The translations under genes and the position numbers were made by a program. Below the pieces are notes generated by a model, which saw only the letters and a list, made by a program, of their open reading frames with translations, did no database searches and had not been told where the DNA came from. Below, piece by piece: positions 1-63,115 of a DNA stretch of 64,000 bases (the first letter of the stretch is position 1; each line of letters begins with the position of its first letter). Source of the stretch: Eledone cirrhosa (taxonomy: Eukaryota); contig OZ024742.1 of assembly GCA_964016885.1 (NCBI GenBank), positions 260,524,001 through 260,588,000 on the forward strand, read 5' to 3'.

Positions 1-1884
1 ATACAGGCATTAAATTAATCAACCAGGTCATGAAGGTCACGGAAAAAGTAATAGCGCAACTAATCAGAGAGAGAATTGATCTAGATGAAATGCAGATCTA
101 GATGAAATGCAGTAAAAGTACCACAGACGCTCTTTTCATTGTACGACAACTACAGGAGAAGTACCTAGCTAAAAGTAAACCCCTATACTTAGCTTTTGTC
201 GACTTGGAGAAAGCCTTCGACAGAGTCCCCCGTTCCATTATCTGGTGGGCTCTTAGAAAACTAGGTGTTGACGAATGGCTTGTGAGAGCTATACAAGCCA
301 TGTATAAAGAAACAGTCAGCAAGGTTAGAATTAACAACGAATATAGTGAAGAGTTTAGCGTAAAAGTTGGCGTCCATCAGGGCTCTGTTCTCAGCCCCCT
401 ACTATTTATTATTGCCCTTCAGGCTATAACAGAGGAGTTCAAGACCGGCTGCCCATGGGAACTCCTATACGCAGATGACCTAACACTCATAGCTGAATCA
501 ATGACCGAGCTAGAGAAGAAATTCCAAACATGGAAGCACGGCCTAGAATCAAAAGGCCTTAAAATTAACCTGGCTAAGACTAAAGTTCTAGTTTGTAAGA
601 AAGAAAATAAGGCGGCCGTCCCTTCCGGGAAGTGGCCATGCTCAGTGTGTAGGAAAGGCGTAGGTAGAAACTCCATTTTGTGTCCCAAATGCAAAGTATG
701 GGTGCATAAAAGATGTAGTGGGATCACAGGTAAGCTAACTAAGAACATAGATTTTACATGTGGCCGGTGCTCTGGTGCAATAAGTAGCAGCAAGTGCCCA
801 CAAAATACTAGCTCTTTCAACTGCGCAGAGGGTTCTATAGAAATAGTGGACAGCTTCCGTTACCTGGGTGACAAAATCAGCAGTGGGGGAGGGTGCTCTG
901 AAAGTACAGTAGCTCGAGTCAGAACTGGATGGAAAAAGTTCAGAGAGCTTATACCACTATTAGGCAGGTTGTATGATGCCTGCATACGAACAGCAATGTT
1001 GCATGGCAGTGAGACCTGGGCATTGTGTGCAGAGGATATACGCAGACTAGAGAGGAATGAAGCTTGTATGCTCCGCTGGATGTGTAATAGTAATATACGT
1101 GAACGGCAAAGCATAAACGAACTAAGGAAAAAATTAGAAATAAGAGGGATCAGATGTTGTTTACTCGAGAGAAGGCTACGTTGGTATGGTCACGTGATGC
1201 GCATGAAAGACGATAGCTGTATAACAAAGTGCAGGGCAATAAAGATAGACGGTAGCCACGGAGTAGGCAGACCCAGAAAAACCTGGGACGAGCTGATAAA
1301 TTCCGACCTCACACACTTACACCTCTCCAAGACAATGTCACTGGACCGAGACCTTTGGCGGTACTCAGTAATAGAGAAGACCCGCCTTACCTAAATACAA
1401 AGTAAAACCTACTACAATCAGTAGGCATCTCTAACAAAATACACCCCCGTCCCACCACCCCCGCCCCTTTCAATGTAAAGTTATGTTGGTGCCACAACAT
1501 CCAGGCCGAAACAAATGAGATCGTGTAGGTGTCACGACAAAAAAAACACACAGTCCACGCTGTAATGTGGCCGTGTAGGTAACACGGTAAAAACCTCCCA
1601 GCCCCACACTGTAAATGTGGTTGGTGTTAGGAAGGGCATCCAGCTGTAGAAAACCCGCCAGACAGTTCACGCTGTAATGTGGCCGTGTAGGCAACACGGT
1701 AAAAACCTCCCAGCCCCACACTGTAAATGTGGTTGGTGTTAGGAAGGGCATCCAGCTGTAGAAAACCCGCCAGACAGTCCTATGCGAGCAAGACAATCAC
1801 TCTTGCCTCAAGTGGGAAGACCCCCCCCCCCCCCGTCCAAACCCATGCAAGCGTGGAACACGGACGTTAAACGTTGATGATGAT
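1..1884 (+). mobile_element. RTE-type LINE (PHD-containing family), continues past left edge, disabled
   Basis: RT motifs DLEKAFDRV, GVHQGSVLSP, LLYADDL; PHD finger 639-770; 3' UTR ending in (GAT)n followed by TA/TG microsatellite; stop from a local duplication near 96-112; 30-bp deletion near 962. Confidence 0.93.
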
Positions 1885-10500: not shown

Positions 10501-13500
10501 GTTCAGAGACGTGCAACCAAGCGCATACCCTCTATCAGACACCTACCATACTCTGAACGCCTTGCTTCCCTGGGCATGGATTCATTGAAGCTCCGACGTC
10601 TGGCAATGGACTTGGTGAATACCCACAAAGTTTTTAACCATCTCGCCAATTGCAACCCTGAGCGCCTCTTTGATCTCCATGTGTCTAACACACGTGGACA
10701 TGCCTACAAGATCAGAAAACAGCACAGCTCCCATGACTTTCGTAGACATTTTTTCACGCTCAGAGTTGCTGAAGCATGGAACAAACTGCCTGCGTCAATT
10801 GTTAGCTGCCGAGACACTGCATCCTTTAAGACACTCATGCTTCCTGAAATACGCCAAAACTACACCTGATGTACTCCTTCCATACACATGCACACGTGTG
10901 TATCATGACTCGTGCACTGTTCATTTTACTGATGTTTGTGCATTGCCCTATGTACTGTACATGCACTTTTTTGATGAGTTGTGGTGCACCTGGGCACTGT
11001 ACACAATATTTCATTATTGTTATTGTTATTATATCATGACTCGTACACTGTTCATTTTCCTGACATTTGTACATTATTCTATGTACTATACATGCACCTT
11101 TGATGAGTTGTAGTGCACCTGAGCACTGTACACAATAATTTCATTATTATTAAAATATAATTTATTCCTGTTCTTCTAGCTTCCAAAACAAGGGTAGTTA
11201 TACACAAAGAAATATGGTAGTTAAGGTTTTATATAATATTACTGGAAATAGCTCTTTTCTGGGCCCCACAAAGAATGAGAAAACAAGGTAAACAAAATGT
11301 CATTAGGCATTGAACCATAGGTAAAAAGCTGAAACAGGTGGATGGGGGTTGTCCTTAGAGACTGCTCTTAAGATGGCAAAGGAGAAGGCTATCTCTTAAT
11401 GTTTTGTACCACATGAAATCACATTAAAACATTCTAGAAAAGTATAAAACAGTGCTACGACTGTATCACATTGGATATTAAAGTTTTTACTCTAATATTG
11501 CAAATGTTCACTCTAATCTGTTCTCTAGTAAAGATACTATAAACATTTGAATTAGCAGAACACTTATAACCACATTAACAAGACATTCCTGAAAAGTACA
11601 AAATAGAGCTATGATGACATCATATTAAAAATTAACAATCCGTCCACTAGTAAAAATATTATAAACATTTTAATCTACAAACCTGTTTTTAGATATTTTC
11701 TGCTAAATTATTATATATGGGGGAGGGGGGTACTTAAAAGTTCCTGGCTTGATCGCTACTACAGAAGCCTGGTTGGAGGCCCAACCTTCTGAATTCTTTT
11801 AACAGGGCTTAGAAAAACTGAAGGACTGCTGCAATAAGTGTGTGGATCTGAGAGGGGAATATGTGGAATAAAATCATAATTAACTGATCCTCCTGTATTT
11901 TCTGTATTTTACCCAAAGCCAGGAACTTTTCAGCACCCTCTCATATTCAGAAATAAGTGGGAATCTCATGAAATTGCCCCAAAATATTTTCAGACAAGAG
12001 GAATGTTGGGTGTAAGCAGGGCCAACATCTGTGTATTTAGCACCTTAGGTTAGCTCTATAAAATATGCTTGGATAATTGATCATTTTTGGCTATCCCTAC
12101 AATGTGTGCTTTACCCAAACTTACAGTCTGGTAAGCTGACAAACCTAGTTTTTGACTCTTCTAACTCTAACCACACTAAGAAATTTACTAAATTTGAATT
12201 TTCTACTTTGTATAAAACTGTGATCCTTTGAGGTTCCATAATATGCCTCTGTGAAGTCTCCATCCTAGTTGACTGCTTAGTTGACATAATGGTAGTGGCA
12301 TAGGGTTAGTAACTCTATCCAACATGAACCCCTATATGCCATAGAAACAAAACAGTAGATATTTAAAACAATATTACCATTTGTTATTGATGTTTGTTTT
12401 TGTTCTTTTTAGTTTTACTTGGTACACAAGTGGGGAGTATGTAAAAAACAATAAATTTCGGTGGATGGGAGATGGAAAAGATGTGTCAAGCCAGGCAGCA
12501 TTTTGGGCAAACGGTGCTATAAACAACAATACAGAAAATAATATTGTGTATGAATATATTGGTGAGTTTTAAACATTTATTCTTTTTATTTTTTTTTATG
12601 CCTTCCGTATTGGCATTGGCTGGACAAGTTGTTACCATCTGAGTCTAGACTGATCAGAGAGACTTTATTTTGTTAATTAAAAAAACCTACTCAGTCCACC
12701 CTGCCAGGTATTAGTGGCAGTACCACAACAAAAGCACCCAGTCCACCCTGCCATGTGGTAGTGGTAGTACCACAAAAAATCCCACTCAGTCCACCCTACT
12801 AGGTGGTAGAGGTGGCAACTGGATAAAATACACCCAGTTCACCCTGCCAGGTGGTAGTGGCAGTACCACAATAAAATACACCCATTCCATTCTGCTAGGT
12901 GGTAGTGGCAATACCATGATAAAACACATCAAGTACATGCTGTAAAGTGGTTGGTGTTATGAAGGGTATCCAGCTGTTGAAACTGTCAGAATGGAATATA
13001 TGAGCAGGATGCAGGCATCTGACAAGTCTAACCTCAGAATGTGACCACTCATTCAACCCATGTGTGAATGGAAGGCAGACATAAAAACAATGGTGGTGGT
13101 GATGGTTACAATTGCATGGCTTGGAGGCTAGGGTGTTGGTCTCTCAAATATGAAAACATGAATTCAATCCACAGGCTAGGCATAGCATGTCCTTGAACAA
13201 AGCTCTTCATTTCATGTTAGTCCAGTATACTCAGCTGCTGGGTGTTAATTTTATAATTGACTGGCCTCTATCTTGTACTCTGTCACTTAACGCTAATGAA
13301 ACCAGATAATAAAAGAAAGACTCTAACATTTTTATAGTCATTAGACTGTTGCTGGAGTACCAAATTCAAGAGTCATATCAACCCTAATACTTATTTTGGT
13401 TTGGTATTTTAGTGATCTCTATTGATCGGATTGCTAATTTTTGCAATTTACATAAACATGCTGGTTTACTTGCGTAAACATGATCATCATTTATGACCCA

Positions 13501-37700: not shown

Positions 37701-40700
37701 GATGACATTGTTTTATGTACAGATTCACTAAGTAATGCAGAGGATCTTTTACACAAGTTAGAAGTGTCTACTCAAGCTATGGGACTCTTCTTAAATGCCA
37801 ACAAAACTAAATACATGACCATCAAGCAACAAACATCAAATCGTTAAACAATACTTGAAAAAGAAGATAATTTCAAATACCTTGGCGCATACATCATAGC
37901 ACAAGCATGATCTGCTATGAACCCACTAGATAAGGTGTGAAAATCTAACATAAACACAAAAACAAAAGTTAGGTTATTCAAAGCTACAGTGGAATCAATC
38001 TTACTGATTTCCTGTGAGTCATGGTTAGTGACAATACCTATCACCAAAGCTTTAGATGGTTGCTACACACAAATGTTAAGAAGGATAAAACACATTAATC
38101 CTTTCAATATTGTTACAACTTACTGCCTATTAGCTATATCATCCATATCAGGTGTCTCCAACTTGCAGATCATGTCATGAGAAGCAATGAACCTGCTACA
38201 AAACTTTTTACTATGGGAGCACACTGTGAAATGCAAATGCAGAAGACCTCTCAAGACATTAAAAAGAGTTGTTGAGGAAGATACAGGATTGTCTGGTGAA
38301 GAACTGGGGCAGTTAATGTTGGATCATTTGAGAGGGAAAGGTTTTATCATGTCACCACAAAAAAGTGGATAAATTTAGTAGTAGTAGTAGTAGTAGTAAT
38401 ATTAGTACTGGATATATTTCATTTCATTATTATTGTGGATTGGCAGTATTGGTAGAGGGTTGGACGTCATGCTTTGACGCATAGTTACGGCCCTTTCCAT
38501 TCTGAGTTCAAATCCCGCCGAGGTTAACTTTGCCTTTCATCCTTACGGAGTCGATAAAATAAAGTACCAGTAATGTACTGGGTAATTGCTGGCCTTGTGC
38601 CAAAAGTAGAAACAATTATTATTATTTTCTCTAGTAATGGCACATTCTGTAAAGTGGTTGAAGTCAAACGAGAGTACAGAAAACTCTAGTTTTTTTCATG
38701 GACATGACTCCCTCTCTGGGGATTGTCCATAATAAAATGCAACCAGTACACTCTGCAATGTGGTTAATATTACAGTGTGTACTGATGATGGTGAGAAATT
38801 ATTATAGATTTCAGTTAATCATATAAATATGTATAAAATTCTGATCCTTTAAGATTCAGTAATGTACTCCTCAGAGGATCTGTATGCCCAAGGTGGCTGC
38901 CTAGTTGGCCTTAATTGCAGTACCAGCTCTGTCAATATCATCTCTCTCTCTCTCCCCCCTCTCTCTCTTTCATTATAGTAAGTCTCTGTCTATTCTAGGT
39001 TGGATTAAAATAGGCTCTGACAAACCCAGAAAAGCCCCTGGAGAGGTGGGTGGTGGTGGAGGTAAAGTGAGTACGCTGGTCATAACCTGGAAGGTAAGAA
39101 ATTAACCCTTCTACCTATTGTTGTTACTTCTCCCAGATATGTTACACCACTTCTATCTATTGTTGTTGTTACTCTTCCTAGATATGTCATACCATTTCTT
39201 CTTATTGTTGTTCTTACCTGTAGGTGTAAGTTACACCCCTTTCTATGAAAATACCTCATGAAAACCCAGAATGTGTCTTATCTACTGGACCTACAAAATT
39301 CCAGTTCAAAATAAATGGTTCATTGTAAATGTTGTATGTAAAATGGTGTGACTTATCTACAGGACCAACAAAATTTCAGTTTAAAATATATGGTACATTG
39401 TAAAATTTGTAATATGGAGGTGTGACTGATACACAAATATATATATGGTTGGTGATATATTTTGCAGCCACTTTTACATCAGGATCAAAATGGCAAGAAG
39501 TTTGGTTACCAGGTGTTTTGGAGGAAGAAACGAGACGCAAATAAACCAGAACACACCTGGTCAGCTGTAAGTAGTACAACTGGTGTTGTTAACCTTTCTT
39601 ATACCAACATGCCTTTAGTTCTACAATACAAAGCTGTTTATTGTAAAGTGTTTATTGTAATTTTATGTAAGAACCTTTCTTACGTTGTATTCCAAACACC
39701 AGTTTAAAAGTATTTAACTAAAGACCTTTCTAAAAACCTTCCATCATAAATTTAAAATAAAAAAGACATGTTGTCACTCCCAAGTATGTCGCACCACTTT
39801 CCATGAAAATCCAGCACGTGAAATCCTTCCGAATTCTTTATTCTTTTCAAAATAATTTGAAGATCATAGGCAATATTTTATTATTAGAAATATGGTACCA
39901 ACAGGTTTAAATGGTTCCTAAATACAATGTTATCTTAATATCCCAGATCAGATCAGATCAATTATCTATATATTGTCAATATTATTTTTCTTGGTGATGG
40001 ATTGGCAGTATCGGTAGAGTGTCGAACAACATGCTTCATGGCATAGAGTTGCAACCCTTTGTTTTGAGTTCAAATCTCGCTGAGGTTAGCTTTGCTTTTC
40101 ATCCTACAGGGTCGATAAAATAAAGCACTAGTAATGCACTGGAGTCAATTTAATCGACTTTCTTCTCCCCTTCAAATTGCTGGCCTAAAGTAGAAACAGT
40201 TATTTTTCTTGGTGACCCTTTACAGCAGGTTCATTTCACTTGGATTTTTTGGTACGTTTTCACCCAATGATCATCATCCCCCTGCATCACATGTCCATAC
40301 CAATACAGTCTCCTCTCCTGTACATTTCATCTGATTCCTCTTTTATCCAATTTTTTCTCAGCTCATCCATGCTTTGTCATTTATGTGCATTAACATTACA
40401 CATCCATCAGAGCATGCTCACATTAAATTTATATTTTAACTCTTCCAGTGGAATGTATCTGGAAGTATAACAAAGGTGGTTGTCCAGATTGATTCCAATA
40501 ATTATTACACTGAATATGAAGTCCAGGTACAAGCTAAGAATGAGATTGGTCTAGGCCCTCGATCAACAATAGTCACAATATTTTCCGCTGAAGATTGTGA
40601 GTATATTTTTAAGAAGTTCTCTTTACAACTACATGTGACCACACACATCCTTATCCCTCATACTGACCTTCACATCACAATCACTTGGATCCCCTCTTGC

Positions 40701-43700
40701 CCTGCCCACTGACCTTCACATCACAAACACATGGGAACCCCTCTTGCCCTGCCCACTAACCTTCACATCACAATCACTTGGATCCCCTCTTGCCCTGCCC
40801 ACTAACCTTCACATCACAATCACATGGGAACCCCTCTTGCCCTGCCCACTGACCTTCACATCACAATCACTTGGATCCCCTCTTGCCCTGCCCACTAACC
40901 TTCACATCACAATCACATGGGAATCCCTCTTGCCCTGCCCACTGACCTTCACATCACAATCACTTGGATCCCCTCTTGCCCTGCCCACTGACCTTCACAT
41001 CACAATCACATGGGAATCCCTCTTGCCCTGCCCACTGACCTTCACATCACAAACACATAGGAACCCCTCTTGCCCTGCCCACTGACCTTCACATCACAAA
41101 CACATGGGAACCCCTCTTGCCCTGCCCACTGACCTTCACATCACAAACACATGGGAACCCCTCTTGCCCTGCCCACTGACCTTCACATCACAAACACATG
41201 GGAACCCCTCTTGCCCTGCCCACTGACCTTCACATCACAAACACATAGGAACCCCTCTTGCCCTGCCCACTGACCTTCACATCACAATCACATGGGAACC
41301 CCTCTTGCCCTGCCCACTGACCTTCACATCACAAACACATGGGAATCCCTCTTGCCCTGCCCACTAACCTTCACATCACAATCACATGGGAACCCCTCTT
41401 GCCCTGCCCACTAACCTTCACATCACAATCACATGGGAATCCCTCTTGCCTTGCGTACTAACCTTCACATCACAATCACATGGGAACCCCTCTTGCCCTG
41501 CCCACTGACCTTCACATCACAATCACATGGGAACCCCTCTTGCTCTGCCCACTAACCTTCACATCACAATCACATGGGAATCCCTCTTGCCCTGCCCACT
41601 AACCTTCACATCACAATCACATGGGAACCCCTCTTGCCCTGCCCACTAACCTTCACATCACAATCACATGGGAATCCCTCTTGCCTTGCGTACTAACCTT
41701 CACATCACAATCACATGGGAACCCCTCTTACCCTGCCCACTGACCTTCACATCACAATCACATGGGAACCCCTCTTGCCCTGCTCACTAACCTTCACATC
41801 ACAATCACATGGGAACCCCTCTTGCCCTGCTCACTAACCTTCACATCACAATCACATGGGAACCCCTCTTGCCCTGCCCACTGACCTTCACATCACAAAC
41901 ACATGGGAACCCCTCTTGCCCTGCCCACTGACCTTCACATCACAATCACATGGGAACCCCTCTTACCCTGCCCACTGACCTTCACATCACAATCACATGG
42001 GAACCCCTCTTGCCCTGCCCACTAACCTTCACATCACAATCACTTGGATCCCCTCTTGCCCTGCCCACTAACCTTCACATCACAATCACATGGGTACCCC
42101 TCTTACCCTGCCCACTGACCTTCACATCACAATCACATGGGAACCCCTCTTACCCTGCCCACTGACCTTCACATCACAATCACATGGGAACCCCTCTTAC
42201 CCTGCCCACTAACCTTCACATCACAATCACATGGGAACCCCTCTTACCCTGCCCACTGACCTTCACATCACAATCACATGGGAACCCCTCTTGCCCTGCC
42301 CACTGACCTTCACATCACAATCACATGGGAACCCCTCTTGCCCTGCTCACTAACCTTCACATCACAATCACATGGGAACCCCTCTTGCCCTGCCCACTAA
42401 CCTTCACATCACAATCACATGGGAACCCCTCTTGCCCTGCCCACTAACCTTCACATCACAATCACATGGGAACCCCTCTTGCCCTGCCCACTGACCTTCA
42501 CATCACAATCACATGGGAACCCCTCTTGCCCTGCCCACTAACCTTCACATCACAATCACTTGGATCCCCTCTTGCCCTGCCCACTAACCTTCACATCACA
42601 ATCACATGGGAACCCCTCTTACCCTGCCCACTAACCTTCACATCACAATCACATGGGAACCCCTCTTGCCCTGCCCACTAACCTTCACATCACAATCACA
42701 TGGGAACCCCTCTTGCCCTGCCCACTAACCTTTACATCACAATCACTTGGGAACCCCTCTTGCCCTGCCCACTAACCTTCACATCACAATCACATGGGAA
42801 CCCCTCTTGCCCTGCCCACTAACCTTCACATCACAATCACATGGGAACCCCTCTTGCCCTGCCCACTAACCTTCACATCACAATCACTTGGGAACCCCTC
42901 TTGCCCTGCCCACTAACCTTCACATCACAATCACTTGGATCCCCTCTTGCCCTGCCCACTAACCTTCACATCACAATCACATGGGAACCCCTCTTGCCCT
43001 GCCCACTAACCTTCACATCACAATCACATGGGAACCCCTCTTGCCCTGCCCACTAACCTTCACATCACAATCACATGGGAACCCCTCTTGCCCTGCCCAC
43101 TAACCTTCACATCACAATCACTTGGGAACCCCTCTTGCCCTGCCCACTAACCTTCACATCACAATCACATGGGAACCCCTCTTGCCCTGCCCACTAACCT
43201 TCACATCACAATCACATGGGAACCCCTCTTGCCCTGCCCACTAACCTTTACATCACAATCACTTGGGAACCCCTCTTGCCCTGCCCACTAACCTTTACAT
43301 CACAATCACTTGGATCCCCTCTTGCCCTGCCCACTAACCTTCACATCACAATCACATGGGAACCCCTCTTGCCCTGCCCACTAACCTTCACATCACAATC
43401 ACTTGGGAACCCCTCTTGCCCTGCCCACTAACCTTCATTTCACAATCACATGGGAACCCCTCTTGCCCTGCCCACTAACCTTTACATCACAATCACTTGG
43501 ATCCCCTCTTGCCCTGCCCACTAACCTTCACATCACAATCACATGGGATCCCCTCTTGCCCTGCCCACTAACCTTCACATCACAATCACATGGGAACCCC
43601 TCTTGCCTTGCCCACTAACCTTCACATCACAATCACTTGGGAACCCCTCTTGCCCTGCCCACTAACCTTCACATCACAATCACTTGGATCCCCTCTTGCC

Positions 43701-46700
43701 CTGCCCACTAACCTTCACATCACAATCACATGGGAACCCCTCTTGCCCTGCCCACTAACCTTCATTTCACAATCACATGGGAATCCCTCTTGCCTTGCGT
43801 ACTAACCTTCACATCACAATCACATGGGAACCCCTCTTGCCCTGCCCACTAACCTTCACATCACAATCACATGGGAACCCCTCTTGCCCTGCCCACTAAC
43901 CTTCACATCACAATCACATGGGAACCCCTCTTACCCTGCCCACTAACCTTCACATCACAATCACTTGGATCCCCTCTTGCCCTGCCCACTAACCTTTACA
44001 TCACAATCACATGGGAACCCCTCTTGCCTTGCCCACTAACCTTCACATCACAATCACTTGGGAACCCCTCTTGCCCTGCCCACTAACCTTCACATCACAA
44101 TCACATGGGAACCCCTCTTGCCCTGCCCACTAACCTTCATTTCACAATCACATGGGAACCCCTCTTGCCCTGCCCACTAACCTTCACATCACAATCACAT
44201 GGGAACCCCTCTTGCCTTGCCCACTAACCTTCACATCACAATCACATGGGAACCCCTCTTGCCCTGCCCACTAACCTTCACATCACAATCACATGGGAAC
44301 CCCTCTTGCCTTGCCCACTAACCTTCACATCACAATCACATGGGAACCCCTCTTGCCCTGCCCACTAACCTTCATTTCACAATCACATGGGAACCCCTCT
44401 TGCTCTGCCCACTAACCTTCACATCACAATCACATGGGAACCCCTCTTGCCCTGCCCACTAACCTTCACATCACAATCACATGGGAACCCCTCTTGCCCT
44501 GCCCACTAACCTTCACATCACAATCACATGGGAACCCCTCTTGCCCTGCCCACTAACCTTCACATCACAATCACATGGGAACCCCTCTTGCCCTGCCCAC
44601 TAACCTTCACATCACAATCACTTGGGAACCCCTCTTGCCCTGCCCACTAACCTTCACATCACAATCACATGGGAACCCCTCTTGCCCTGCCCACTAACCT
44701 TCACATCACAATCACATGGGAACCCCTCTTGCCCTGCCCACTAACCTTTACATCACAATCACTTGGGAACCCCTCTTGCCCTGCCCACTAACCTTTACAT
44801 CACAATCACTTGGATCCCCTCTTGCCCTGCCCACTAACCTTCACATCACAATCACATGGGAACCCCTCTTGCCCTGCCCACTAACCTTCACATCACAATC
44901 ACATGGGAACCCCTCTTGCCCTGCCCACTAACCTTTACATCACAATCACTTGGGAACCCCTCTTGCCCTGCCCACTAACCTTCACATCACAATCACATGG
45001 GAACCCCTCTTGCCCTGCCCACTAACCTTCACATCACAATCACTTGGGAACCCCTCTTGCCCTGCCCACTAACCTTCATTTCACAATCACATGGGAACCC
45101 CTCTTGCCCTGCCCACTAACCTTTACATCACAATCACTTGGATCCCCTCTTGCCCTGCCCACTAACCTTTACATCACAATCACTTGGGAACCCCTCTTGC
45201 CCTGCCCACTAACCTTCACATCACAATCACATGGGAACCCCTCTTGCCCTGCCCACTAACCTTCACATCACAATCACATGGGAACCCCTCTTGCCCTGCC
45301 CACTAACCTTTACATCACAATCACTTGGGAACCCCTCTTGCCCTGCCCACTAACCTTCACATCACAATCACATGGGAACCCCTCTTGCCCTGCCCACTAA
45401 CCTTCACATCACAATCACTTGGGAACCCCTCTTGCCCTGCCCACTAACCTTCATTTCACAATCACATGGGAACCCCTCTTGCCCTGCCCACTAACCTTTA
45501 CATCACAATCACTTGGATCCCCTCTTGCCCTGCCCACTAACCTTCACATCACAATCACATGGGATCCCCTCTTGCCCTGCCCACTAACCTTCACATCACA
45601 ATCACATGGGAACCCCTCTTGCCTTGCCCACTAACCTTCACATCACAATCACTTGGGAACCCCTCTTGCCCTGCCCACTAACCTTCACATCACAATCACT
45701 TGGGAACCCCTCTTGCCCTGCCCACTAACCTTCACATCACAATCACTTGGATCCCCTCTTGCCCTGCCCACTAACCTTCACATCACAATCACATGGGAAC
45801 CCCTCTTGCCTTGCCCACTAACCTTCACATCACAATCACTTGGGAACCCCTCTTGCCCTGCCCACTAACCTTCACATCACAATCACTTGGGAACCCCTCT
45901 TGCCCTGCCCACTAACCTTCACATCACAATCACTTGGATCCCCTCTTGCCCTGCCCACTAACCTTCATTTCACAATCACATGGGAATCCCTCTTGCCTTG
46001 CGTACTAACCTTCACATCACAATCACATGGGAACCCCTCTTGCCCTGCCCACTAACCTTCACATCACAATCACATGGGAACCCCTCTTGCCCTGCCCACT
46101 AACCTTCACATCACAATCACATGGGAACCCCTCTTACCCTGCCCACTAACCTTCACATCACAATCACTTGGATCCCCTCTTGCCCTGCCCACTAACCTTT
46201 ACATCACAATCACATGGGAACCCCTCTTGCCTTGCCCACTAACCTTCACATCACAATCACTTGGGAACCCCTCTTGCCCTGCCCACTAACCTTCATTTCA
46301 CAATCACATCGGAACCCCTCTTGCTCTACCCACTAACCTTCACATCACAATCACATGGGAACCCCTCTTGCCCTGCCCACTAACCTTCACATCACAATCA
46401 CATGGGAACCCCTCTTGCCCTGCCCACTAACCTTCACATCACAATCACATGGGAACCCCTCTTGCCCTGCCCACTAACCTTCACATCACAATCACATGGG
46501 AACCCCTCTTGCCCTGCCCACTAACCTTCACATCACAATCACATGGGAACCCCTCTTGCCCTGCCCACTAACCTTCACATCACAATCACATGGGAACCCC
46601 TCTTGCCCTGCCCACTAACCTTCACATCACAATCACATGGGAACCCCTCTTGCCCTGCCCACTAACCTTCATTTCACAATCACATGGGAACCCCTCTTGC

Positions 46701-49533
46701 CCTGCCCACTAACCTTCACATCACAATCACATGGGAACCCCTCTTGCCCTGCCCACTAACCTTCACATCACAATCACATGGGAACCCCTCTTGCCCTGCC
46801 CACTAACCTTCATTTCACAATCACATGGGAACCCCTCTTGCCCTGCCCACTAACCTTCACATCACAATCACATGGGAACCCCTCTTGCCCTGCCCACTAA
46901 CCTTCACATCACAATCACATGGGAACCCCTCTTGCCCTGCCCACTAACCTTCATTTCACAATCACATGGGAACCCCTCTTGCCCTGCCCACTAACCTTCA
47001 CATCACAATCACTTGGGAACCCCTCTTGCCCTGCCCACTAACCTTCACATCACAATCACATGGGAACCCCTCTTGCCCTGCCCACTAACCTTCACATCAC
47101 AATCACATCACAATCACATGGGAACCCCTCTTGCCCTGCCGACTGACCTTCACATCACAATCACATGGGAACCCCTCTTGCCCTGCCCACTAACCTTCAC
47201 ATCACAATCACATGGGAATCCCTCTTGCCTTGCCCACTAACCTTCACATCACAATCACATGGGAACCCCTCTTGCCCTGCCCACTAACCTTCACATCACA
47301 ATCACTTGGATCCCCTCTTGCCCTGCCCACTAACCTTCACATCACAATCACATGGGAACCCCTCTTGCCCTGCCCACTAACCTTCACATCACAATCACAT
47401 GGGAACCCCTCTTGCCCTGCCCACTGACCTTCACATCACAATCACATGGGAACCCCTCTTGCCCTGCCCACTAACCTTCACATCACAATCACATCACAAT
47501 CACATGGGAACCCCTCTTACCCTGCCCACTCACCTTCACATCACAATCACATGGGAACCCCTCTTGCCCTGCCCACTAACCTTCACATCACAATCACTTG
47601 GATCCCCTCTTGCCCTGCCCACTAACCTTCACATCACAATCACTTGGATCCCCTCTTGCCCTGCCCACTAACCTTCACATCACAATCACATGGGAACCCC
47701 TCTTGCCCTGCCCACTAACCTTCACATCACAATCACATGGGAACCCCTCTTGCCCTGCCCACTAACCTTCACATCACAATCACATGGGAACCCCTCTTGC
47801 CCTGCCCACTAACCTTCACATCACAATCACATGGGAACCCCTCTTGCCCTGCCCACTAACCTTCACATCACAATCACATGGGAACCCCTCTTGCCCTGCC
47901 CACTAACCATCACAATCACATGGGAATCCCTCTTGCCCTGCCCACTAACCTTCACATCACAATCACTTGGGAACCCCTCTTGCCCTGCGTACTAACCTTC
48001 ACATCACAATCACATGGGAACCCCTCTTGCCCTGCCCACTAACCTTCACATCACAATCACATGGGAACCCCTCTTGCCCTGCCCACTAACCTTCACATCA
48101 CAATCACATGGAACCCCTCTTGCCCTGCCCACTAACCTTCACATCACAATCACTTGGAACCCCTCTTGCCCTGCCCACTAACCTTCACATCACAATCACA
48201 TGGGAACCCCTCTTGCCCTGCCCACTAACCTTCACTTCATATTCACATGGTTCACCCACCCACTTCTCCTTCCCACTAACCTTCCCTTTACAACTATATG
48301 TGACTACACCCTTTCCTCCCTCCTACTAATCTTCCTTTCACACTCACATGTGACCACACCCTCTTCTCCCTCCTACTAATCTTCATTTCACAATCACGTG
48401 ACCACAGCCCTTCTCCCTCCCACTAACCTTCACTTCATAATCACCTGACCACACCCCTCAGTAACCATGTGAGAAAGCCAGATACATGTATTTCAGTGTA
48501 CTTTATCCATCATTAGTGACGCTTGCTTATTTGGTAATGAGGTATGTAGAACTTAATGCTTCTAATTTGAGATTTTACAAATACATTTTTAAAGAGATAT
48601 TATTTGTGTATAGTGTGAATTTGTTGGGCTACTATTAATTTTCCTTGTGATATATTACCACTTAGTACCAGCGATTACTGTGACCAATGTGAAAGGGCTT
48701 GCTTACAATGCTACAGCTATCAAAGTAACTTGGGACCCTGTCACAGATGACAGAAAGACTTTAAAAGGGAAACTTGTTGGATATAAGGTACAGTGGCTTT
48801 TTCGTATTTATAAATTCTATATTCTAATAATGAATGTTAAGAGAAATGGAAAGAAATGGTTGGGCCATGTGTTGAGGAATGGTGAGAGAAGTGGTAGAAA
48901 TGAATGTGGAAGGAAATAGAGAAAGCAAAAGACCAAGAAAGACATGGCTAAAAATGAGGAAGAATTTAAACCCATGGATCACTGCATCATTTTCATTGAA
49001 CCAGTCTTTATGCTTTCTATTGGTATGACCCAAAACTCCAGCACTAACATGATAGACAGTTTTCTTCAATGATTCCCACGTGTTTTCACATGGACTCAAG
49101 GGACCTCGACAGCTCAGCTCTGACTTTCTCTGTTTTCAGACGAGCCACGTTTAGTTGTTTTGGAAGTGCAACCTTCTTCCCTCTTACTTACATACATACA
49201 TACAGATACATAAGTATGTGTGTGTAGTGTCCTGCCTTGACCAGTTTTGCTCAATGACCGAAAGAATTAAAATAATCATATAATCAGAGTTATTTATCAA
49301 ATTATAAATACAAGGAAAGAATAGACAAAGATATACCCATTTTTTCTTCAAAGTCCCAACTGCAGTTTCACTGATTGGTCTGCAGTAATCATGCACCAGT
49401 GCTGTCAGGCAGTTGACTCTTCAGGAGAACCCCTCAATTTAGTGAATTATTTCCTGACCTGACCGTTATAATTTCCTATTTCATGACTGAAATAGGAAAT
49501 GTTTGTGTGTGCAAATTTTAAAGAGTTACAGAT

Positions 49534-53157: not shown

Positions 53158-54170
53158 TATAGTGGTCAATCCACTATATTGGTGACCCACGACGTGATAC
53201 GAACACGCAATCCAATTACAACGCACTTCATACAACAAAAGTAAAAAAAAAAAAATTAAAATAAAGAAAAAAATTGAATAGACTTTCTGGAACAATGGAG
53301 AGAGAATTGTTTTTTTACTCATCAAGGAAGTATTGGGAAGTTGACAGAAATACCATTGGGAATGATGAACTAACACACATTCGTTTTGGCAAAATTATAT
53401 GTTACTTTTTTTTCCTTCCTTTTCCATTTCGTTTCCTCTGATATGATCATCTATAGTCGAACAATTCAATATTTCAGTGAAATATATTCCTTTATCAATT
53501 TTTTCCTGTTAACTAAAAGGAAAACGAAAGCTTTCCACGAAATTGGTTAATACTTGAAAAAAAATTTGTTTTCGCCGAAAATGAAACTTCTAATTCCAAC
53601 ATGGCGTTGTCTTCTTTTCCAACATTGACATTTTCGCGCCATCTTACGTTCATTGCACATGCACACTGAAATTGCGTGCAAAAACGGGAGACATATTGTA
53701 TTTGGCATGAAAATACAAATTTTTCCACTTCGAGATTCGGCAAGCAATATACATATTGCTACTCAGATTACAACTTATTTCCATCTTTTTGGTTCCATAC
53801 GAAATTTTCAACAATGAGTGGGAACTCCCTGCCTAATTTTTCAGGTTACGTGCGTGTGTGGTTTGTGCAAATGGAAGCACATTTCGCGGCCAATGGTTTG
53901 GTAGACCCTGCAAAACAATTGCACATATTGCTGAGTGCGATCCCGACTTCCTTGACTAACACAGTCAAGGATTTGATTACTGATCCGCCTCCTAACGCAA
54001 CCTATCTCAGCGTCAAAGCTGAAATTCTAAGAAGAACTTCACAGATGGCGGAAAAGAGATTTAGCATTCTGGTTAACGATGAACACCTAGGAGACAGATT
54101 GCCTCACAGCTTTTACGACGGATGGAGCTAGCAGAGAATGCCCCAGCGGAGAGCGAAATGTTAAAATTTT
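53158..54170 (+). mobile_element. Gypsy-type LTR retrotransposon remnant: tRNA-Trp primer-binding site and Gag N-terminal fragment
   Basis: TGGTGACCCACGACGTGAT at 53180 complements the tRNA-Trp 3' end; ORF from 53814 LPNFSGYVRVWFVQMEAHF...VKDLITDPP...Y..VKAEILRR...LGDR is Gypsy Gag-like; frameshifted. Confidence 0.75.
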
Positions 54171-54414: not shown

Positions 54415-55181
54415 ATCATCATCATCATCATCAACGTTTAACGTCCGTGTTCCACGCTTGCATGGGTTTGGACGGGGGTAGTCCCACTTGAGGCAAGAGT
54501 GATTGTCTTGCTCGCATAGGACTGTCTGGCAGGTTTTCTACAGTTGGATGCCCTTCCTAACACCAACCACATTTACAGTGTGGGTCTGGGAGGTTTTTAC
54601 CGTGTTGCCTACACGGCCACATTACAGCGTGGACTGTGTGTTTTTTTGTCGTGACACCTACACGATCTCATTTGTTTCGGCCTGGATGGCGCGGCACCAA
54701 CATAACTTTACATAGAACGGGGTGGTGTGGATGGGGTGGTGGTGGTGGGACGGAGTGTATTTTGTTAGAGATGCCTACTGGCTGGAGTAGGTTTTACTAT
54801 ATATTTAGGTAAGGCGGGTCTTCTCTGTTACTGAGTACCGCCAAAGGTCTCGGTCCAGTGACATTGTCTTGGAGAGGTGTAAGTGTGTGATGTCGGAGTT
54901 TATCAGCTCGTCCCAGGTTTTTCTAGGTCTGCCTATTCTGTGACTACCGTCTATCTTTATTGCCCTGCACTTTGTTATACAGCTATCGACTTTCATGCGC
55001 ATCACGTGTCCATACCAACGTAGCCTTCTCTCGAGTAAACAACATCTGATCCCTCTTATCTCTAATTTTTTCCTTAGTTCGTTTATGCTTTGCCGTTCAC
55101 GTATATTACTGTTACACATCCAACGGAGCATGCAAGCTTCGTTCCTCTCTAGTCTGCGTATATCCTCTGCACACAATGCCC

Positions 55182-55185
<4 letters not shown>
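54415..55185 (-). mobile_element. PHD-RTE LINE, 5'-truncated young copy in (TA)n
   Basis: Near-identical to the other copies; TA tracts on both sides; (GAT)n tail. Confidence 0.93.
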
Positions 55186-55225
<40 letters not shown>

Positions 55226-55256
55226 TTATATATATATATTTATATATTTATATATA

Positions 55257-55292
<36 letters not shown>

Positions 55293-55712
55293 CCTTATTC
55301 AATATTCTCCAGTATGTAGAGAAAAATCTTGTCGTTCTATTTAGTTACGAAAAATCTTTTTTGGTAGCGATCATAGACGGCTAGTCTATGATTTCCCGCC
55401 TTCACTATACACCAACGTATTTATGGGTCACTTTCACTACCTTTCAGACCTGTATTAGTTGGAGTGAGGTTATATATTTTGTTGTTCCTGGGGTTTTAAC
55501 CCGAGGATAGGAAAATGCTTCTCTGATGATCTTCGCTTTTCCATTAATATCTACGTGATATCTAATGTTTTGCAAAGTGAAACTGTACAGTTAGGGCCAT
55601 TTGAATAGGTAAATATTTATATTATATTTTTTAATTTTGATTAATTTTAATTGTATATTAATTTTGATTTATTTTGAAAAATTGGTTGAATTTTACTTGT
55701 TCTGCTTATCTT

Positions 55713-56174
<462 letters not shown>

Positions 56175-56982
56175 TATGATGCCTGCATACGAACAGCAAT
56201 GTTGCATGGCAGTGAGACCTGGGCATTATGTGCAGAGGATATACGCAGACTAGAGAGAAACGAAGCTTGCATGCTCCGCTGGATGTGTAATAGTAATATA
56301 CGTGAACGACAAAGCATAAACGAACTAAGGAAAAAATTAGAAATAAGAGGGATCAGATGTTGTTTACTAGAGAGAAGGCTATGTTGGTATGGTCACGTGA
56401 TGCGCATGAAGGACAATAGCTGTATAACAAAGTGCAGGGCAATAAAGATAGACGGTAGCCACGGAATAGGCAGACCCAGAAAAACCTGGGACGAGCTGAT
56501 AAACTCCGACCTCACACACTTACACCTCACCAAGACAATGTCACTGGACCGAGACCTTTGGCGGTACTCAGTAATAGAGAAGACCCGCCTTACCTAAATA
56601 CAAAGTAAAACCTACTACAGTCAGTAGGCATCTCTAACAAAATACACCCCCGTCCCACCACCCCCACCCCATCCACACCGCCCCCTTCTATGTAAAGTTA
56701 TGTTGGTGCCACACCATCCAGGCCGAAACAAATGAGATCGTGTAGGTGTCACGACAAAAAAACACACAGTCCACGCTGTAATGTGGCCGTGTAGGCAACA
56801 CGGTAAAAACCTCCCAGACCCACACTGTAAATGTGGTTGGTGTTAGGAAGGGCATCCAACTGTAGAAAACCTGCCAGACAGTCCTATGCGAGCAAGACAA
56901 TCACTCTTGCCTCAAGTGGGAATACCCCCGTCCAAACCCATGCAAGCGTGGAACACGGACGTTAAACGTTGATGATGATGAT
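56175..56982 (+). mobile_element. PHD-RTE LINE, 5'-truncated young copy in (TA)n
   Basis: Starts at [10 protein letters not shown] directly after TA; ends in (GAT)n followed by TA. Confidence 0.93.
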
Positions 56983-56993
56983 ATATATATATT

Positions 56994-57024
<31 letters not shown>

Positions 57025-57034
57025 ATATATATAT

Positions 57035-58257
57035 AGACTAAAGTTCTAGTTTGTAGGAAAGAAAATAAGGCGGCGGTCCCTTCTGGGAAATGGTCGTGCT
57101 CGGTGTGTAGGAAAGGTGTAGGTAGAAACTCCATTTTATGTCCTAAATGCAAAGTATGGGTGCACAAAAGATGTAGTGGGATCACAGGTAAGCTAACTAA
57201 GAACATAGATTTTACATGTGGCCGGTGCTCTGGTGCAATAAGTAGCAGCAAGTGCCAACAAAATACTAGCTCTTTCAATTGCGCAGAGGGTTCTATAGAA
57301 ATAGTGGACAGCTTCCGTTACCTGGGCGATAAAATCAGCAGTGGGGGAGGGTGCTCTGAAAGTACAGTAGCTAGAGTCAGAACTGGTTGGAAAAAGTTCA
57401 GAGAGCTTATACCACTATTAGCTTCTAAAGGGTTCTCCCTAAAAATGAAAGGCAGGTTGTACGATGCCTGCATACGAACAGCAATGTTGCATGGCAGTGA
57501 GACCTGGGCATTGTGTGCAGAGGATATACGCAGACTAGAGAGGAACGAAGCTTGCATGCTCCGCTGGATGTGTAACAGTAATATACGTGAACGGCAAAGC
57601 ATAAACGAACTAAGGAAAAAATTAGAGATAAGAAGGATCAGATGTTGTTTACTCGAGAGAAGGCTACGTTGGTATGGACACGTGATGCGCATGAAAGTCG
57701 ATAGCTATATAACAAAGTGCAGGGCAATAAAGATAGACGGTAGCCACGGAATAGGCAGACCTAGAAAAACCTGGGACGAGCTGATAAACTCCGACCTCAC
57801 ACACTTACACCTCTCCAAGACAATGTCACTGGACCGAGACCTTTGGCGGTACTCCGTAACAGAGAAGACCCGCCTTACCTAAATACATAGTAAAACCTAC
57901 TACAGCCAGTAGGCATCTCTAACAAAATACACCCCGTCCCCCCACCCCATCCACACCAGCGTGTTCTATGTAAACTTATGTTGGTCCCGCGCCATCCAGG
58001 CCGAAACAAATGAGATCGTGTAGGTGTCACGACAAAAAAACACACAGTCCACGCTGTAATGTGGCCGTGTAGGCAACACGGTAAAAACCTCCCAGACCCA
58101 CACTGTAAATGTGGTTGGTGTTAGGAAGGGCATCCAACTGTAGAAAACCTGCCAGACAGTCCTATGCGAGCAAGACAATCACTCTTGCCTCAAGTGGGAC
58201 TACCCCCGACCAAACCCATGCAAGCGTGGAACACGGACGTTAAACGTTGATGATGAT
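57035..58257 (+). mobile_element. PHD-RTE LINE, 5'-truncated young copy in (TA)n
   Basis: Open frame through PHD finger and C-terminus (57103-57882); TA on both sides. Confidence 0.93.
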
Positions 58258-59082: not shown

Positions 59083-59086
<4 letters not shown>

Positions 59087-61808
59087 TCATCATCATCAAT
59101 GTTTAACGTCCGTGTTCCAGGCTTGCATGGGTTTGGACGGGGGTAGTCCCACTTGAGGCAAGAGTGATTGTCTTGCTCGCATAGGACTGTCTGGCAGGTT
59201 TTCTACAGTTGGATGCCCTTCCTAACACCAACCACATTTACAGTGTGGGTCTGGGAGGTTTTTACTGTGTTGCCTACACGGCCACATTACAGCGTGGACT
59301 GTGTTTTTTTTTGTCGTGACACCTACACGATCTCATTTGTTTCGGCCTGGATGGCGCGGCACCAACATAACTTTACATAGAACGGGGTGGTGTGGATGGG
59401 GTGGGGGTGGTGGTGGTGGGACGGGGTGTATTTTGTTAGAGATGCCTACTGGCTGGAGTAGGTTTTACTATATATTTATTTAAGGCGGGTCTTCTCTGTT
59501 ACTGAGTACCGCCAAAGGTCTCGGTCCAGTGACATTGTCTTGGAGAGGTGTAAGTGTGTGAGGTCGGAGTTTATCAGCTCGTCCCAGGTTTTTCTAGGTC
59601 TGCCTATTCCGTGGCTACCGTCTATCTTTATTGCCCTGCACTTTGTTATACAGCTATCGACTTTCATGCGCATCACGTGTCCATACCAACGTAGCCTTCT
59701 CTTGAGTAAACAACATCTGATCCCTCTTATCTCTAATTTTTTCCTTAGTTCGTTTATGCTTTGCCGTTCACGTATATTACTGTTACACATCCAGCGGAGC
59801 ATGCAAGCTTCGTTCCTCTCTAGTCTGCGTATATCCTCTGCACACAAAGCCCAGGTCTCCCTGCCATGCAACATTGCTGTTCGTATGCAGGCATCGTACA
59901 ACCTGCCTTTCATTTTTAGGGAGAACCCTTTAGCAGCTAATAGTGGTATAAGCTCTCTGAACTTTTTCCAACCAGTTCTGACTCTAGCTACAGTACTTTC
60001 AGAGCACCCTCCCCCACTGCTGATTTTATCGCCCAGGTAACGGAAGCTGTCCACTATTTCTATAGAACCCTCTGCGCAATTGAAAGAGCTAGTATTTTGT
60101 GGGCACTTGCTGCTACTTATTGCACCAGAACATCGGCCACATGTAAAGTCTATGTTCTTAGTTAGCTTACCTGTGATCCCACTACATCTTTTATGCACCC
60201 ATACTTTGCATTTAGGACATAAGATGGAGTTTCTACCTACGCCTTTCCTACATACCGAGCACGACCATTTCCCAGAAGGGACCGCCGCCTTGTTTTCTTT
60301 CCTACAAACTAGAACTTTGGTCTTAGCCAGGTTAATTTTAAGTCCTTTTGACTCTAGGCCGTGCTTCCATGTTTGGAATTTCTTCTCTAGCTCGGCCATT
60401 GATTCCGCTATGAGTGTCAGGTCGTCTGCGTATAGGAGTTCCCATGGGCAGCCTGTCTTGAACTCCTCTGTTATAGCCTGAAGGGCAATAATAAATAGTA
60501 GGGGGCTGAGAACAGAGCCCTGATGGACGCCAACTTTTACGCTAAACTCTTCACTATATTCGTTGTTAATTCTAACCTTGCTGACTGTTTCTTTATACAT
60601 GGCTTGTATAGCCCTCACAAGCCATTCGTCAACGCCTAGTTTTCTAAGAGCCCACCAGATAATGGAGCGGGGGACTCTGTCGAAGGCTTTCTCCAGGTCG
60701 ACAAAAGCTAAGTAGAGGGGTTTACCTTTAGCTAGGTACTTCTCCTGTAGTTGTCGTACTATGAAAAGAGCGTCTGTGGTGCTTTTGCCTGACACAAACC
60801 CGAACTGCATTTCATCTAGATCAATTCTCTCTCTGATTAGTTGCGCTATTACTTTTTCCGTGACCTTCATGACCTGGTCGATTAATTTAATGCCTCTATA
60901 GTTACTCCTATCTAGGGCGTCTCCTTTACCCTTATAACAGTTAACGATGATGCTGCTATGCCAGTCCTTCGGAACAACCCCATTCTGTACGACTTGGTTA
61001 ACTATGCGGGTGACCATGGTGTGTCCCACCGTGCCAGATGCCTTCAGCATCTCAGCAACTATTTCCGAAGGCCCAGCCGCCTTACCAGTCTTCATATCCT
61101 TGATTGCCTTACTTATTATACTCCCCTCGACTAACACTGCTGGTCCCTCTATCGGGTCGATATGGGGGAGACTGTCTTTCTCCCATTTATTCTCCTCATT
61201 TAGTAGCCTTTCATAGTGACACTTCCAAGCTACCTTCTTATCAGTGTCGGTGATGGCAAGTATGCCATCATCGTTAAGTACACACTTCTCCCCGACAATA
61301 TCACGGTTTTCCTTGACGCATTGCCTGGCAATCCTGAACACCTCACGTTTTTGGTCATCGCGTTGTAGAACATGCTTGAACTTTCTTTCCTCCGCTTCCT
61401 TTCTTGCTAAGTACACTTCTCTCCTAGCTTCCCTCCTGGCCACTTGATAGTCTACTCTACTTCCCCCATCCCGCCATACTTTCCAAGCCTGCTTTTTGGC
61501 CTTAATTGACCCCTCCACCCTATTGTTCCACCACCATGTTACTCTCCTCCTGCCTACAGGCCTGCTCCAGCCACAGACCTCGTCTGTCGCCAACAGCAGG
61601 TTTGCTTTCAGAAATTTCCACTGTCCCTCTATATTGTCCGATTCTAGATGCTCTTCCTTACTGTCGAAAGCATCAAGTAATATGCTTTGAAATTTATTTC
61701 TGGCTGTGGGGTCCTTTAGTTTCCATATTTTCCTCCTGAGGATAGTCCTCTTCTGCTGTCGGGTACGTCTCGTCCTGACTATGAGGTCGCTAATTATCAG
61801 TCTATGTT
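59083..61808 (-). mobile_element. PHD-RTE LINE, longest copy (2.7 kb), 5'-truncated at the end of the APE domain, ORF intact
   Basis: Frame open from 61806 (HRLIISDL) to the stop at 59476; full RT (NYRGIKL, QFGF, DLEKAFD, QGSVLSP, YADD); PHD finger 60130-60261. Confidence 0.95.

Positions 61809-63115
<1,307 letters not shown>

What the first reader, a model, noticed from the sequence alone, without database searches (positions are those of the whole stretch)
59083..61808. Young RTE LINE whose reverse transcriptase carries an inserted C4HC3 PHD-type zinc finger
Seen: in the uninterrupted ORF (61806 to 59476), the segment between GLKINLAKTKVLV and EIVDSFRYLG contains CSVC-x10-CPKC-x4-H-x2-C-x14-CGRC (60130-60261). 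The same segment is at 639-770 and ~57097-57229. Known: Cys4-His-Cys3 is the PHD spacing, PHD fingers often read histone H3 tails, and in typical RTE proteins this linker is short. PHDs in LINEs are usually discussed for ORF1 of CR1/L2 groups. Inference: a chromatin- or nucleic-acid-binding module grafted next to the RT thumb could guide integration, like chromodomains in chromoviruses. Similar architectures may already exist among catalogued invertebrate RTE families, so the novelty is more likely functional than structural.
Basis: partly seen in the sequence, partly recalled or inferred. Interest (0 to 1): 0.75.

Follow-up and report, generated by a model that had tools for sequence, protein, structure and literature searches.

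The report
PHD finger inside LINE reverse transcriptase
A very abundant young jumping gene, with relatives from corals to fish, carries a conserved PHD zinc finger inside its copying enzyme, at the sequence position of the loop that a related transposon uses to grip its target DNA, and its copies favour CpG-poor DNA, so the finger likely tethers the enzyme to gene-body chromatin where it inserts.

Summary
Observation confirmed. The 776-aa frame is a 5'-truncated copy of a young RTE LINE (76,429 candidate sites in this 3-Gb genome). A C4HC3 finger (residues 516-559) lies between RT motifs 6 and 7. Pfam, profile and fold searches call it a PHD, closest to Pygopus.

It is an old lineage trait. 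With a finger-free query, 98 of 98 relatives spanning the site carry the long insert; named hosts include cnidarians, molluscs and fish. dN/dS is about 0.08.

The insert starts where R2Bm's target-reading loop 6a lies (sequence collinearity). It keeps four of five Pygo methyl-lysine pocket positions, lacks both acidic residues, and is basic (+7).

Copies insert at (TA)n and lean to CpG-poor DNA: 21/33, against 9/33 random windows and 28/71 for a finger-less RTE. The control sample was enlarged after a first, inconclusive look.

Best reading (0.45): a chromatin tether during target-primed reverse transcription. Binding is untested. Six literature searches found no description of this arrangement. 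This scan has already noted it 18 times on other DNA.

The parts
59083..61808 (-). 5'-truncated young RTE LINE copy (no endonuclease), flanked by (TA)n on both sides
59476..61806 (-). Open frame, 776 aa (P0001): linker, RT core (Pfam RVT_1 300-500), finger insert, motif 7, thumb and wrist region
   Evidence: AF2 model mean pLDDT 83.8; matches L1 ORF2p Z 25.6 (rmsd 7.5, 638 aligned) and R2Bm Z 20.2 (rmsd 4.5, 506 aligned)
60304..60345 (-). RT motif 6 and the following strand (residues 488-501); R2Bm residues 666-668 align to its end
60130..60261 (-). C4HC3 PHD finger, Pygo-like (C516-C559). Pocket positions V523, S527 and W536 lie inside it; W514 lies just before it
60031..60045 (-). RT motif 7 / primer grip (F-x-Y-L-G, residues 588-592)
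59083..59475 (-). 3' UTR ending in a (GAT)n tail that runs into (TA)n
1..1884 (+). Second copy, about 92% identical, with the same finger at 639-770
57035..58257 (+). Third copy, 96% identical, truncated just before the finger (57097-57228)

Best explanation
The insert is a conserved PHD zinc finger inside the palm of the reverse transcriptase of an old, widespread RTE lineage, and it likely works as a target-side tether that holds the enzyme on chromatin while it inserts. Shown: the fold class, the position between motifs 6 and 7, conservation and selection, and insertion at (TA)n with a lean to CpG-poor DNA. Inferred steps: (1) the loop faces the upstream target duplex, as loop 6a does in R2Bm; (2) the basic surface grips DNA or the nucleosome; (3) the Pygo-like pocket (W514, V523, S527, W536) takes a methylated histone lysine of transcribed gene bodies (H3K4me1/2 or H3K36me; the mark is not identified); (4) the endonuclease and the (GAT)n tail choose the (TA)n site locally, while the finger biases which chromatin domain is used.
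For: Position: R2Bm 666/668 align to L499/C501, so its 6a loop (672-677, which reads upstream DNA and is needed for nicking; PMC10499050, passages) falls at about 505-510, the start of the insert. Pocket: Pygo1 uses Y341, V350, A356, W366 and D352 (PMC2726290, passages). The first four align to W514, V523, S527 and W536 (alignment to Pygo2); all four are kept in 69 of 86 relatives, and V523 and S527 are 52/52 and W536 51/52. The seven best PHD hits of the profile are all Pygo chains; the best fold hit is fly Pygo, Z 5.2, rmsd 3.2, 53 aligned, tied with other PHDs. Selection: dN 0.124 / dS 1.48 between two in-genome families, like the thumb and unlike the adjacent linker (dN 0.58). No amplified finger-less subfamily was seen among the top single-stretch hits; those are copies with differing private deletions. 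Genomic setting: flank CpG o/e median 0.43 (33 of 40 windows usable), against 0.75 for random windows (33 of 40) and 0.71 for a finger-less RTE of the same genome (71 of 76); Mann-Whitney p 0.0015 and 0.0007; control versus random p 0.71. In windows not chosen for the family, pieces of it occur in 8 of 37 CpG-poor and 1 of 67 CpG-normal windows (p 0.001). (TA)n runs are not richer in CpG-poor random windows (11.6 versus 15.0). Octopus methylation marks bodies of expressed genes (PMC9476566, abstract).
Against: The acidic residues that Pygo uses for H3 binding are absent: an acid in the D352 loop in 3 of 86, at E360 in 2 of 86; E360 is essential in Pygo. Net charge is +3 to +12 in all 86, unfavourable for a basic tail. 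The bias is partial: 12 of 33 copies have CpG-normal flanks. With the first 35 control windows the difference from the finger-less family was not clear (21/33 versus 18/35, Fisher p 0.34, Mann-Whitney 0.03), and 40 more control windows were added after seeing that. It is one family against one family that differs in endonuclease, tail and age, and on partly different contigs (C1 versus C1-C4). In random plus control windows together, CpG-poor ones hold slightly more (TA)n runs (17.1 versus 16.4). The link to loop 6a is sequence collinearity, not a structural superposition with DNA. No flank was CpG-rich (maximum 0.81), which argues against reading H3K4me3 at promoters.
Confidence: 0.45

Rival explanations
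1. DNA-only binder: the finger has given up histone reading and contacts the upstream target duplex directly, as a large analogue of R2 loop 6a, reading (TA)n or its shape or simply raising affinity.
For: Basic in 86 of 86 relatives, with conserved K521, K539, R/K540 and K/R547; acids absent. Position matches loop 6a. (TA)4 lies at 31 of 41 3' junctions and 27 of 37 5' junctions, against 1 of 31 for the finger-less RTE and 647 of 8000 random 40-mers.
Against: It does not explain why four pocket positions are kept (69 of 86) or the CpG-poor bias, which (TA)n abundance does not account for. The (GAT)n tail and the endonuclease can explain (TA)n choice (inference). Targets of finger-bearing relatives in other hosts were not examined.
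Confidence: 0.25
2. The finger acts off the target: it binds the element's own RNA or a host protein (for RNP assembly, nuclear entry or replication forks), standing in for an ORF1. The CpG bias then comes from open chromatin or later selection.
For: PHDs of CR1/L2 elements sit in ORF1 and also hit Pygo structures 2vpb and 3zpv (PMC4120745, passages). Pygo uses a second face to bind a protein partner. The finger is basic.
Against: It is placed at a loop that faces target DNA in R2Bm. The finger-less RTE shows no clear CpG bias in the pooled sample (p 0.71 versus random), so general accessibility does not obviously give the pattern.
Confidence: 0.22
3. Structural passenger: an old insertion tolerated in a surface loop and kept folded only so as not to disturb the polymerase.
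For: Catfish, plant and SR2-like RTEs transpose without it.
Against: Surface positions are conserved beyond the zinc ligands. Length is held at about 90 aa in 97 of 98 relatives. A clean deletion would restore the ordinary RT, yet none has spread in this genome's top hits.
Confidence: 0.06

Closest known systems
RTE-clade LINEs: finger-less catfish (Hemibagrus, Pangasius) and plant (Capsicum, Glycine) relatives; octopus RTE-2_OV (PMC9115989, passages and section 8)
   Same: One long ORF with APE endonuclease and RT, a short-repeat tail, frequent 5' truncation. Finger-bearing and catfish/plant rows form one group (98/98) apart from the SR2-like RTE and the CR1-like row.
   Different: About 63 extra residues holding a PHD between motifs 6 and 7. 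RTE-2_OV is described with a terminal C2H2 finger, and the paper's main text mentions no PHD domain. Whether its O. bimaculoides RTE belongs to this lineage was not tested; supplements were not read.
R2Bm RT loop 6a (PMC10499050, passages)
   Same: An insertion between RT motifs 6 and 7, starting at the same aligned point.
   Different: 6a is a short loop reading two bases of a fixed rDNA target in an RLE-type element, and the authors call it unique to R2. Here a whole zinc finger sits there in an APE-type element. No homology between the two inserts is claimed.
Pygopus PHD finger (PMC2726290, passages; Pfam PHD_Pygo PF27108)
   Same: Best profile hits (E 5e-8 to 7e-6); Y341, V350, A356, I357 and W366 equivalents kept.
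   Different: No D352 or E360 equivalents; basic rather than acidic; embedded in a polymerase; no BCL9-type partner known.
PHD domains of CR1/L2 LINEs (PMC4120745, passages)
   Same: A PHD carried by a LINE, often with Pygo structures as top hits; general chromatin targeting was proposed and untested.
   Different: Those lie in ORF1 or at the N-terminus of ORF2 or a single ORF. That paper calls ORF2 structure highly constrained; here the PHD is inside the RT core.
Chromoviruses and Ty3 integrase-PHD elements (recalled; no call)
   Same: A chromatin-reader module fused to the insertion enzyme.

Membership tests
RTE-clade LINE | APE endonuclease and RT in one long ORF | tested here: met
   Full-length sister L032: Exo_endo_phos 74-287, RVT_1 604-804 in 1084 aa. 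The focal copy has lost the endonuclease by 5' truncation.
RTE-clade LINE | 3' tail of short tandem repeats, not poly(A) (feature recalled) | tested here: met
   (GAT)n tails in the three in-genome families.
RTE-clade LINE | RT phylogeny places it with reference RTE elements | tested here: inconclusive
   Groups with catfish and plant RTE-type proteins (98/98), apart from SR2-like and CR1-like rows. No named Repbase or Dfam reference was in the tree; the clade labels are recalled.
RTE-clade LINE | ORF1 absent or very short | not tested
   Only ORFs of 500 aa or more were listed for L032; the 5' region was not analysed for a short ORF1.
PHD finger | Cys4-His-Cys3 ligand pattern with conserved spacing | tested here: met
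   (six ligands 52/52, last two 51/52); 92 of 98 relatives from a finger-free query.
PHD finger | Profile score over the curated cut-off | tested here: met
   33.4 bits isolated, 28.1 in the full-length sister, cut-off 24; 23.8 for the whole focal protein. C1 and RING profiles score below their cut-offs.
PHD finger | PHD fold | tested here: met
   Model pLDDT 74.6. Nearly all of the top 50 VIA rows are PHD-containing chains, best Z 5.2; Foldseek rows likewise, none at E <= 0.001. Scores are modest, as for any 50-residue domain.
PHD finger | Binds two zinc ions | not testable with these tools
   Needs metal analysis or a structure.
Pygo-type H3K4me reader | Semi-aromatic pocket (Y341, V350, A356, W366) | tested here: met
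   All four kept in 69 of 86; alignment.
Pygo-type H3K4me reader | Acidic D352 lip and E360 | tested here: not met
   3 of 86 and 2 of 86. It is therefore not filed as a Pygo-type reader.
Pygo-type H3K4me reader | Measured binding to methylated H3 tail | not testable with these tools
   Needs ITC or peptide arrays.
R2 loop-6a-type target reader | Insertion between RT motifs 6 and 7 at the 6a point | tested here: met
   By sequence collinearity only.
R2 loop-6a-type target reader | Contacts the upstream target DNA and is needed for nicking | not testable with these tools
   No coordinates with DNA could be superposed; needs biochemistry or cryo-EM.

The most novel reading that the evidence does not exclude
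A major animal RTE lineage evolved chromatin-guided target-primed reverse transcription: a histone-methyl reader built into the polymerase loop that R2 uses for DNA recognition steers insertions into transcribed, methylated gene bodies. The motif 6-7 loop is then a natural plug-in port for retargeting LINE polymerases. The finger may have come from a CR1/L2 ORF1 PHD, and the finger-less plant and fish RTEs may have lost it.
Probability: 0.3. Interest if true: 0.85.

Novelty: new variant of a known kind. Interest (0 to 1): 0.62.

Why it matters
How APE-type LINEs choose chromatin is open, and their ORF2 core is thought to be structurally constrained. A reader-type domain inside the RT palm, at the site R2 uses to read DNA, makes the question testable with point mutants in a family that is highly active in this genome. 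It may help explain where LINE copies pile up in cephalopod genomes. It also shows that a folded 60-residue domain is tolerated at that loop, which matters for LINE- and R2-based gene-insertion tools.

Tried and rejected
Complex prediction of the finger (503-572) with the unmodified H3 tail (1-30) gave no answer (score 0.02, alignment not used, controls not folded); it is no evidence either way.

C1, RING and FYVE readings were rejected: lower profile scores, and PHDs dominate the fold hits.

'Recent, octopus-specific graft' was rejected.

A finger-less subfamily of this lineage was sought in the genome with a finger-less query; the top hits were private deletions (23 loci inspected of 280 matches).

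A search with a finger-less profile returned almost only one catfish family, so finger-less sampling is thin. One gain versus gain followed by loss is unresolved: p-AU 0.45 for a single finger clade, 20% of bootstraps, long outgroup branches.

Target-site duplication lengths could not be fixed because flanks are microsatellites.

A larger sample of finger-family flanks was not obtained, so that group stays at 40 windows.

Kapitonov and Jurka 2003 (PMC7528939) is not held, and Repbase Reports and Dfam could not be searched. The donor of the finger (host Pygo or CR1/L2 ORF1) was not tested.

Full report
Observation. The frame 61806-59476 (-) is open for 776 aa. It holds Pfam RVT_1 at 300-500 and PHD at 516-559. 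The isolated segment scores 33.4 bits against a cut-off of 24; the whole focal protein scores 23.8. The copy is 5'-truncated, lacks the endonuclease, ends in (GAT)n and has (TA)n on both sides.

The family. The genome has 3.0 Gb and is likely a cephalopod's; this is inferred from the nearest named hit, Octopus bimaculoides. A 150-aa query gave 76,429 first-look candidates; the 150 scored, being the best, were all 100% identical. Twenty loci picked for long frames gave stop-to-stop frames of 1084-1414 aa. L032 encodes APE, RT and PHD in one 1084-aa ORF. At least three families with intact fingers and (GAT)n tails coexist. Between the focal family and a second one the finger has dN 0.124 and dS 1.48, similar to the thumb region (0.12-0.14 over 1.8-2.7). 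The RT core is lower (dN 0.065-0.084) and the linker after the finger much higher (dN 0.58). Against the third family dS is saturated.

Spread. A query that left the finger out (residues 225-500) found 1815 proteins at E <= 1e-20. Of the 120 listed, 98 span motifs 6 and 7. All 98 have a long insert (84-137 aa) and 92 match the strict pattern. The other 22 are truncated or frameshifted, one with a deletion that also removes part of motif 6. Among 150 representatives at 50% identity, 75 span the site. Ten of these are short: seven rows of one catfish family, one plant, one unnamed, and one partial deletion of the finger. Named hosts of the finger lineage are Octopus, Mercenaria, Hydractinia, Montipora, Neoarius, and, as cluster members or RT hits whose finger I did not check, Branchiostoma and Myxine. 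In a tree of 55 rows without the insert's columns, finger-bearing rows and the finger-less catfish and plant rows form one group (98/98). A single finger clade is neither shown nor rejected (p-AU 0.45), so one gain, or a gain followed by loss, both stand. Rows were thinned at 70% identity from 284, and garbled finger-less gene models were dropped.

Where it sits. The AF2 model (pLDDT 83.8) matches L1 ORF2p and R2. The insert follows the strand after motif 6 (491-501) and precedes the hairpin and motif 7 (574-596). R2Bm residue 666 aligns to L499 and 668 to C501. R2Bm loop 6a (672-677) reads the upstream target motif, its deletion blocks nicking, and the authors predicted it unique to R2. They also note that the upstream DNA could be modelled onto L1 ORF2 (PMC10499050, passages). 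The insert thus begins where 6a lies. That it faces the same DNA is an inference.

What kind of PHD. Profile searches rank Pygo first among PHDs. The Atlas, queried with a fish homologue, gave PHD and PHD_Pygo clusters. The finger model (pLDDT 74.6) retrieves PHDs almost throughout, fly Pygo first at Z 5.2, tied with others. In Pygo1 the K4me2 pocket is Y341, W366, D352, V350 and A356, and E360 and I357 are also needed (PMC2726290, passages). By the alignment, W514, V523, S527, I528 and W536 match. All four pocket positions are kept in 69 of 86 relatives; I chose that set for having complete fingers. The acids are not kept (3 of 86 and 2 of 86), and net charge is +3 to +12. So the pocket is kept, but the finger is not a Pygo-type reader by membership. 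PHDs in CR1/L2 ORF1 also hit Pygo structures, with no functional studies known to those authors (PMC4120745, passages), which makes another LINE a possible donor (untested).

Where copies land. A finger-less RTE in the same genome (DUF6451-bearing, SR2-like by recall, 26-aa linker, (CTGAGT)n tail, best pairwise identities 97.6-100%) served as control. (TA)4 lies within 40 nt of 31 of 41 readable 3' junctions and 27 of 37 5' junctions of the finger family (60 loci given). The control has 1 of 31 and random 40-mers 8%. Following a lead from earlier notes, I measured CpG o/e in 8-kb flanks with repeats masked; the genome is bimodal. Below 0.6 were 21 of 33 finger-family windows (40 fetched), 9 of 33 random (40) and 28 of 71 control (76). 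Mann-Whitney p is 0.0015 against random, 0.0007 against control, and 0.71 for control against random. The first control batch alone was inconclusive (18 of 35; Fisher 0.34, Mann-Whitney 0.03), and I enlarged it afterwards. In windows not chosen for the family, its pieces occur in 8 of 37 CpG-poor and 1 of 67 CpG-normal windows. (TA)n supply does not explain this in random windows. Octopus methylation is enriched in bodies of expressed genes (PMC9476566, abstract), so CpG-poor likely means gene body. The window fits: exons of an Ig/FN3 adhesion gene lie at 15.8-50.7 kb and CpG o/e is 0.16-0.36 over the first 40 kb, though 0.58 at 48-56 kb and not measurable around the focal copy. This is a correlation between two families, not proof that the finger is the cause.

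Mechanism. Most likely (0.45) the finger tethers the RT to target chromatin. It would do so through a basic surface on DNA or the nucleosome and a pocket for a methyl-lysine of transcribed chromatin, while the endonuclease and tail pick (TA)n locally. Rivals are a DNA-only binder (0.25), an RNA- or host-protein-binding module (0.22) and a structural passenger (0.06). Promoter H3K4me3 reading is disfavoured because no flank was CpG-rich.

Novelty. Searches for RTE with PHD terms and for octopus RTE zinc fingers gave no paper describing a PHD inside an RTE reverse transcriptase. I saw listings, plus passages of PMC3849965, PMC4120745, PMC9115989 (also section 8) and PMC12988792. No supplements were read; those of PMC9115989 may bear on whether its O. 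bimaculoides RTE is this lineage. Subscription papers, Repbase Reports and Dfam were out of reach, and Kapitonov and Jurka 2003 was not held. Automatic annotation already pairs RVT_1 with PHD on many records. This scan noted the same arrangement 18 times in at least 3 genomes; those are unchecked notes and not independent support. The loop-6a and Pygo-pocket readings here predate that look-up (notes). Verdict: a real, selected, apparently undescribed variant of RTE LINEs with a testable but unproven targeting role; interest 0.62.

Noticed in passing
window 15774-50731 (+): Exons of an Ig + FN3 cell-adhesion gene, contactin-like by inference: six Ig-type and two FN3 Pfam hits, four more FN3-looking exons without hits. 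Its last exons were not found, so the focal LINE may lie in an intron.
   Followed up: partly
window 8004-10869 (+): CR1/L2-type LINE ORF2 (APE + RT; label recalled) broken by a stop and a frameshift, with a short motif 6-7 linker; used as outgroup.
   Followed up: partly
window 54418-58257: Three more short 3' fragments of the same RTE family cluster beside the focal copy, each in (TA)n.
   Followed up: partly
window 61810-63110; L044, L045, L077, L109: 5' junctions of young copies often carry long tandem amplifications of target or element sequence (about 1.3 kb of imperfect (TA)n here), suggesting slippage during insertion.
   Followed up: no
window 1550-1780: 112-bp tandem duplication inside the 3' UTR of the copy at 1-1884.
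   Followed up: no
window about 40640-48330: A satellite of about 7.5 kb of short repeated units in an intron of the adhesion gene.
   Followed up: no
window 53670-54131 (+): DUF7041 match (E 4e-13), likely a fragment of an LTR-retrotransposon gag-like gene (inference).
   Followed up: no
L257-L260, L221-L256: A young finger-less RTE family with a (CTGAGT)n tail that does not target (TA)n.
   Followed up: yes
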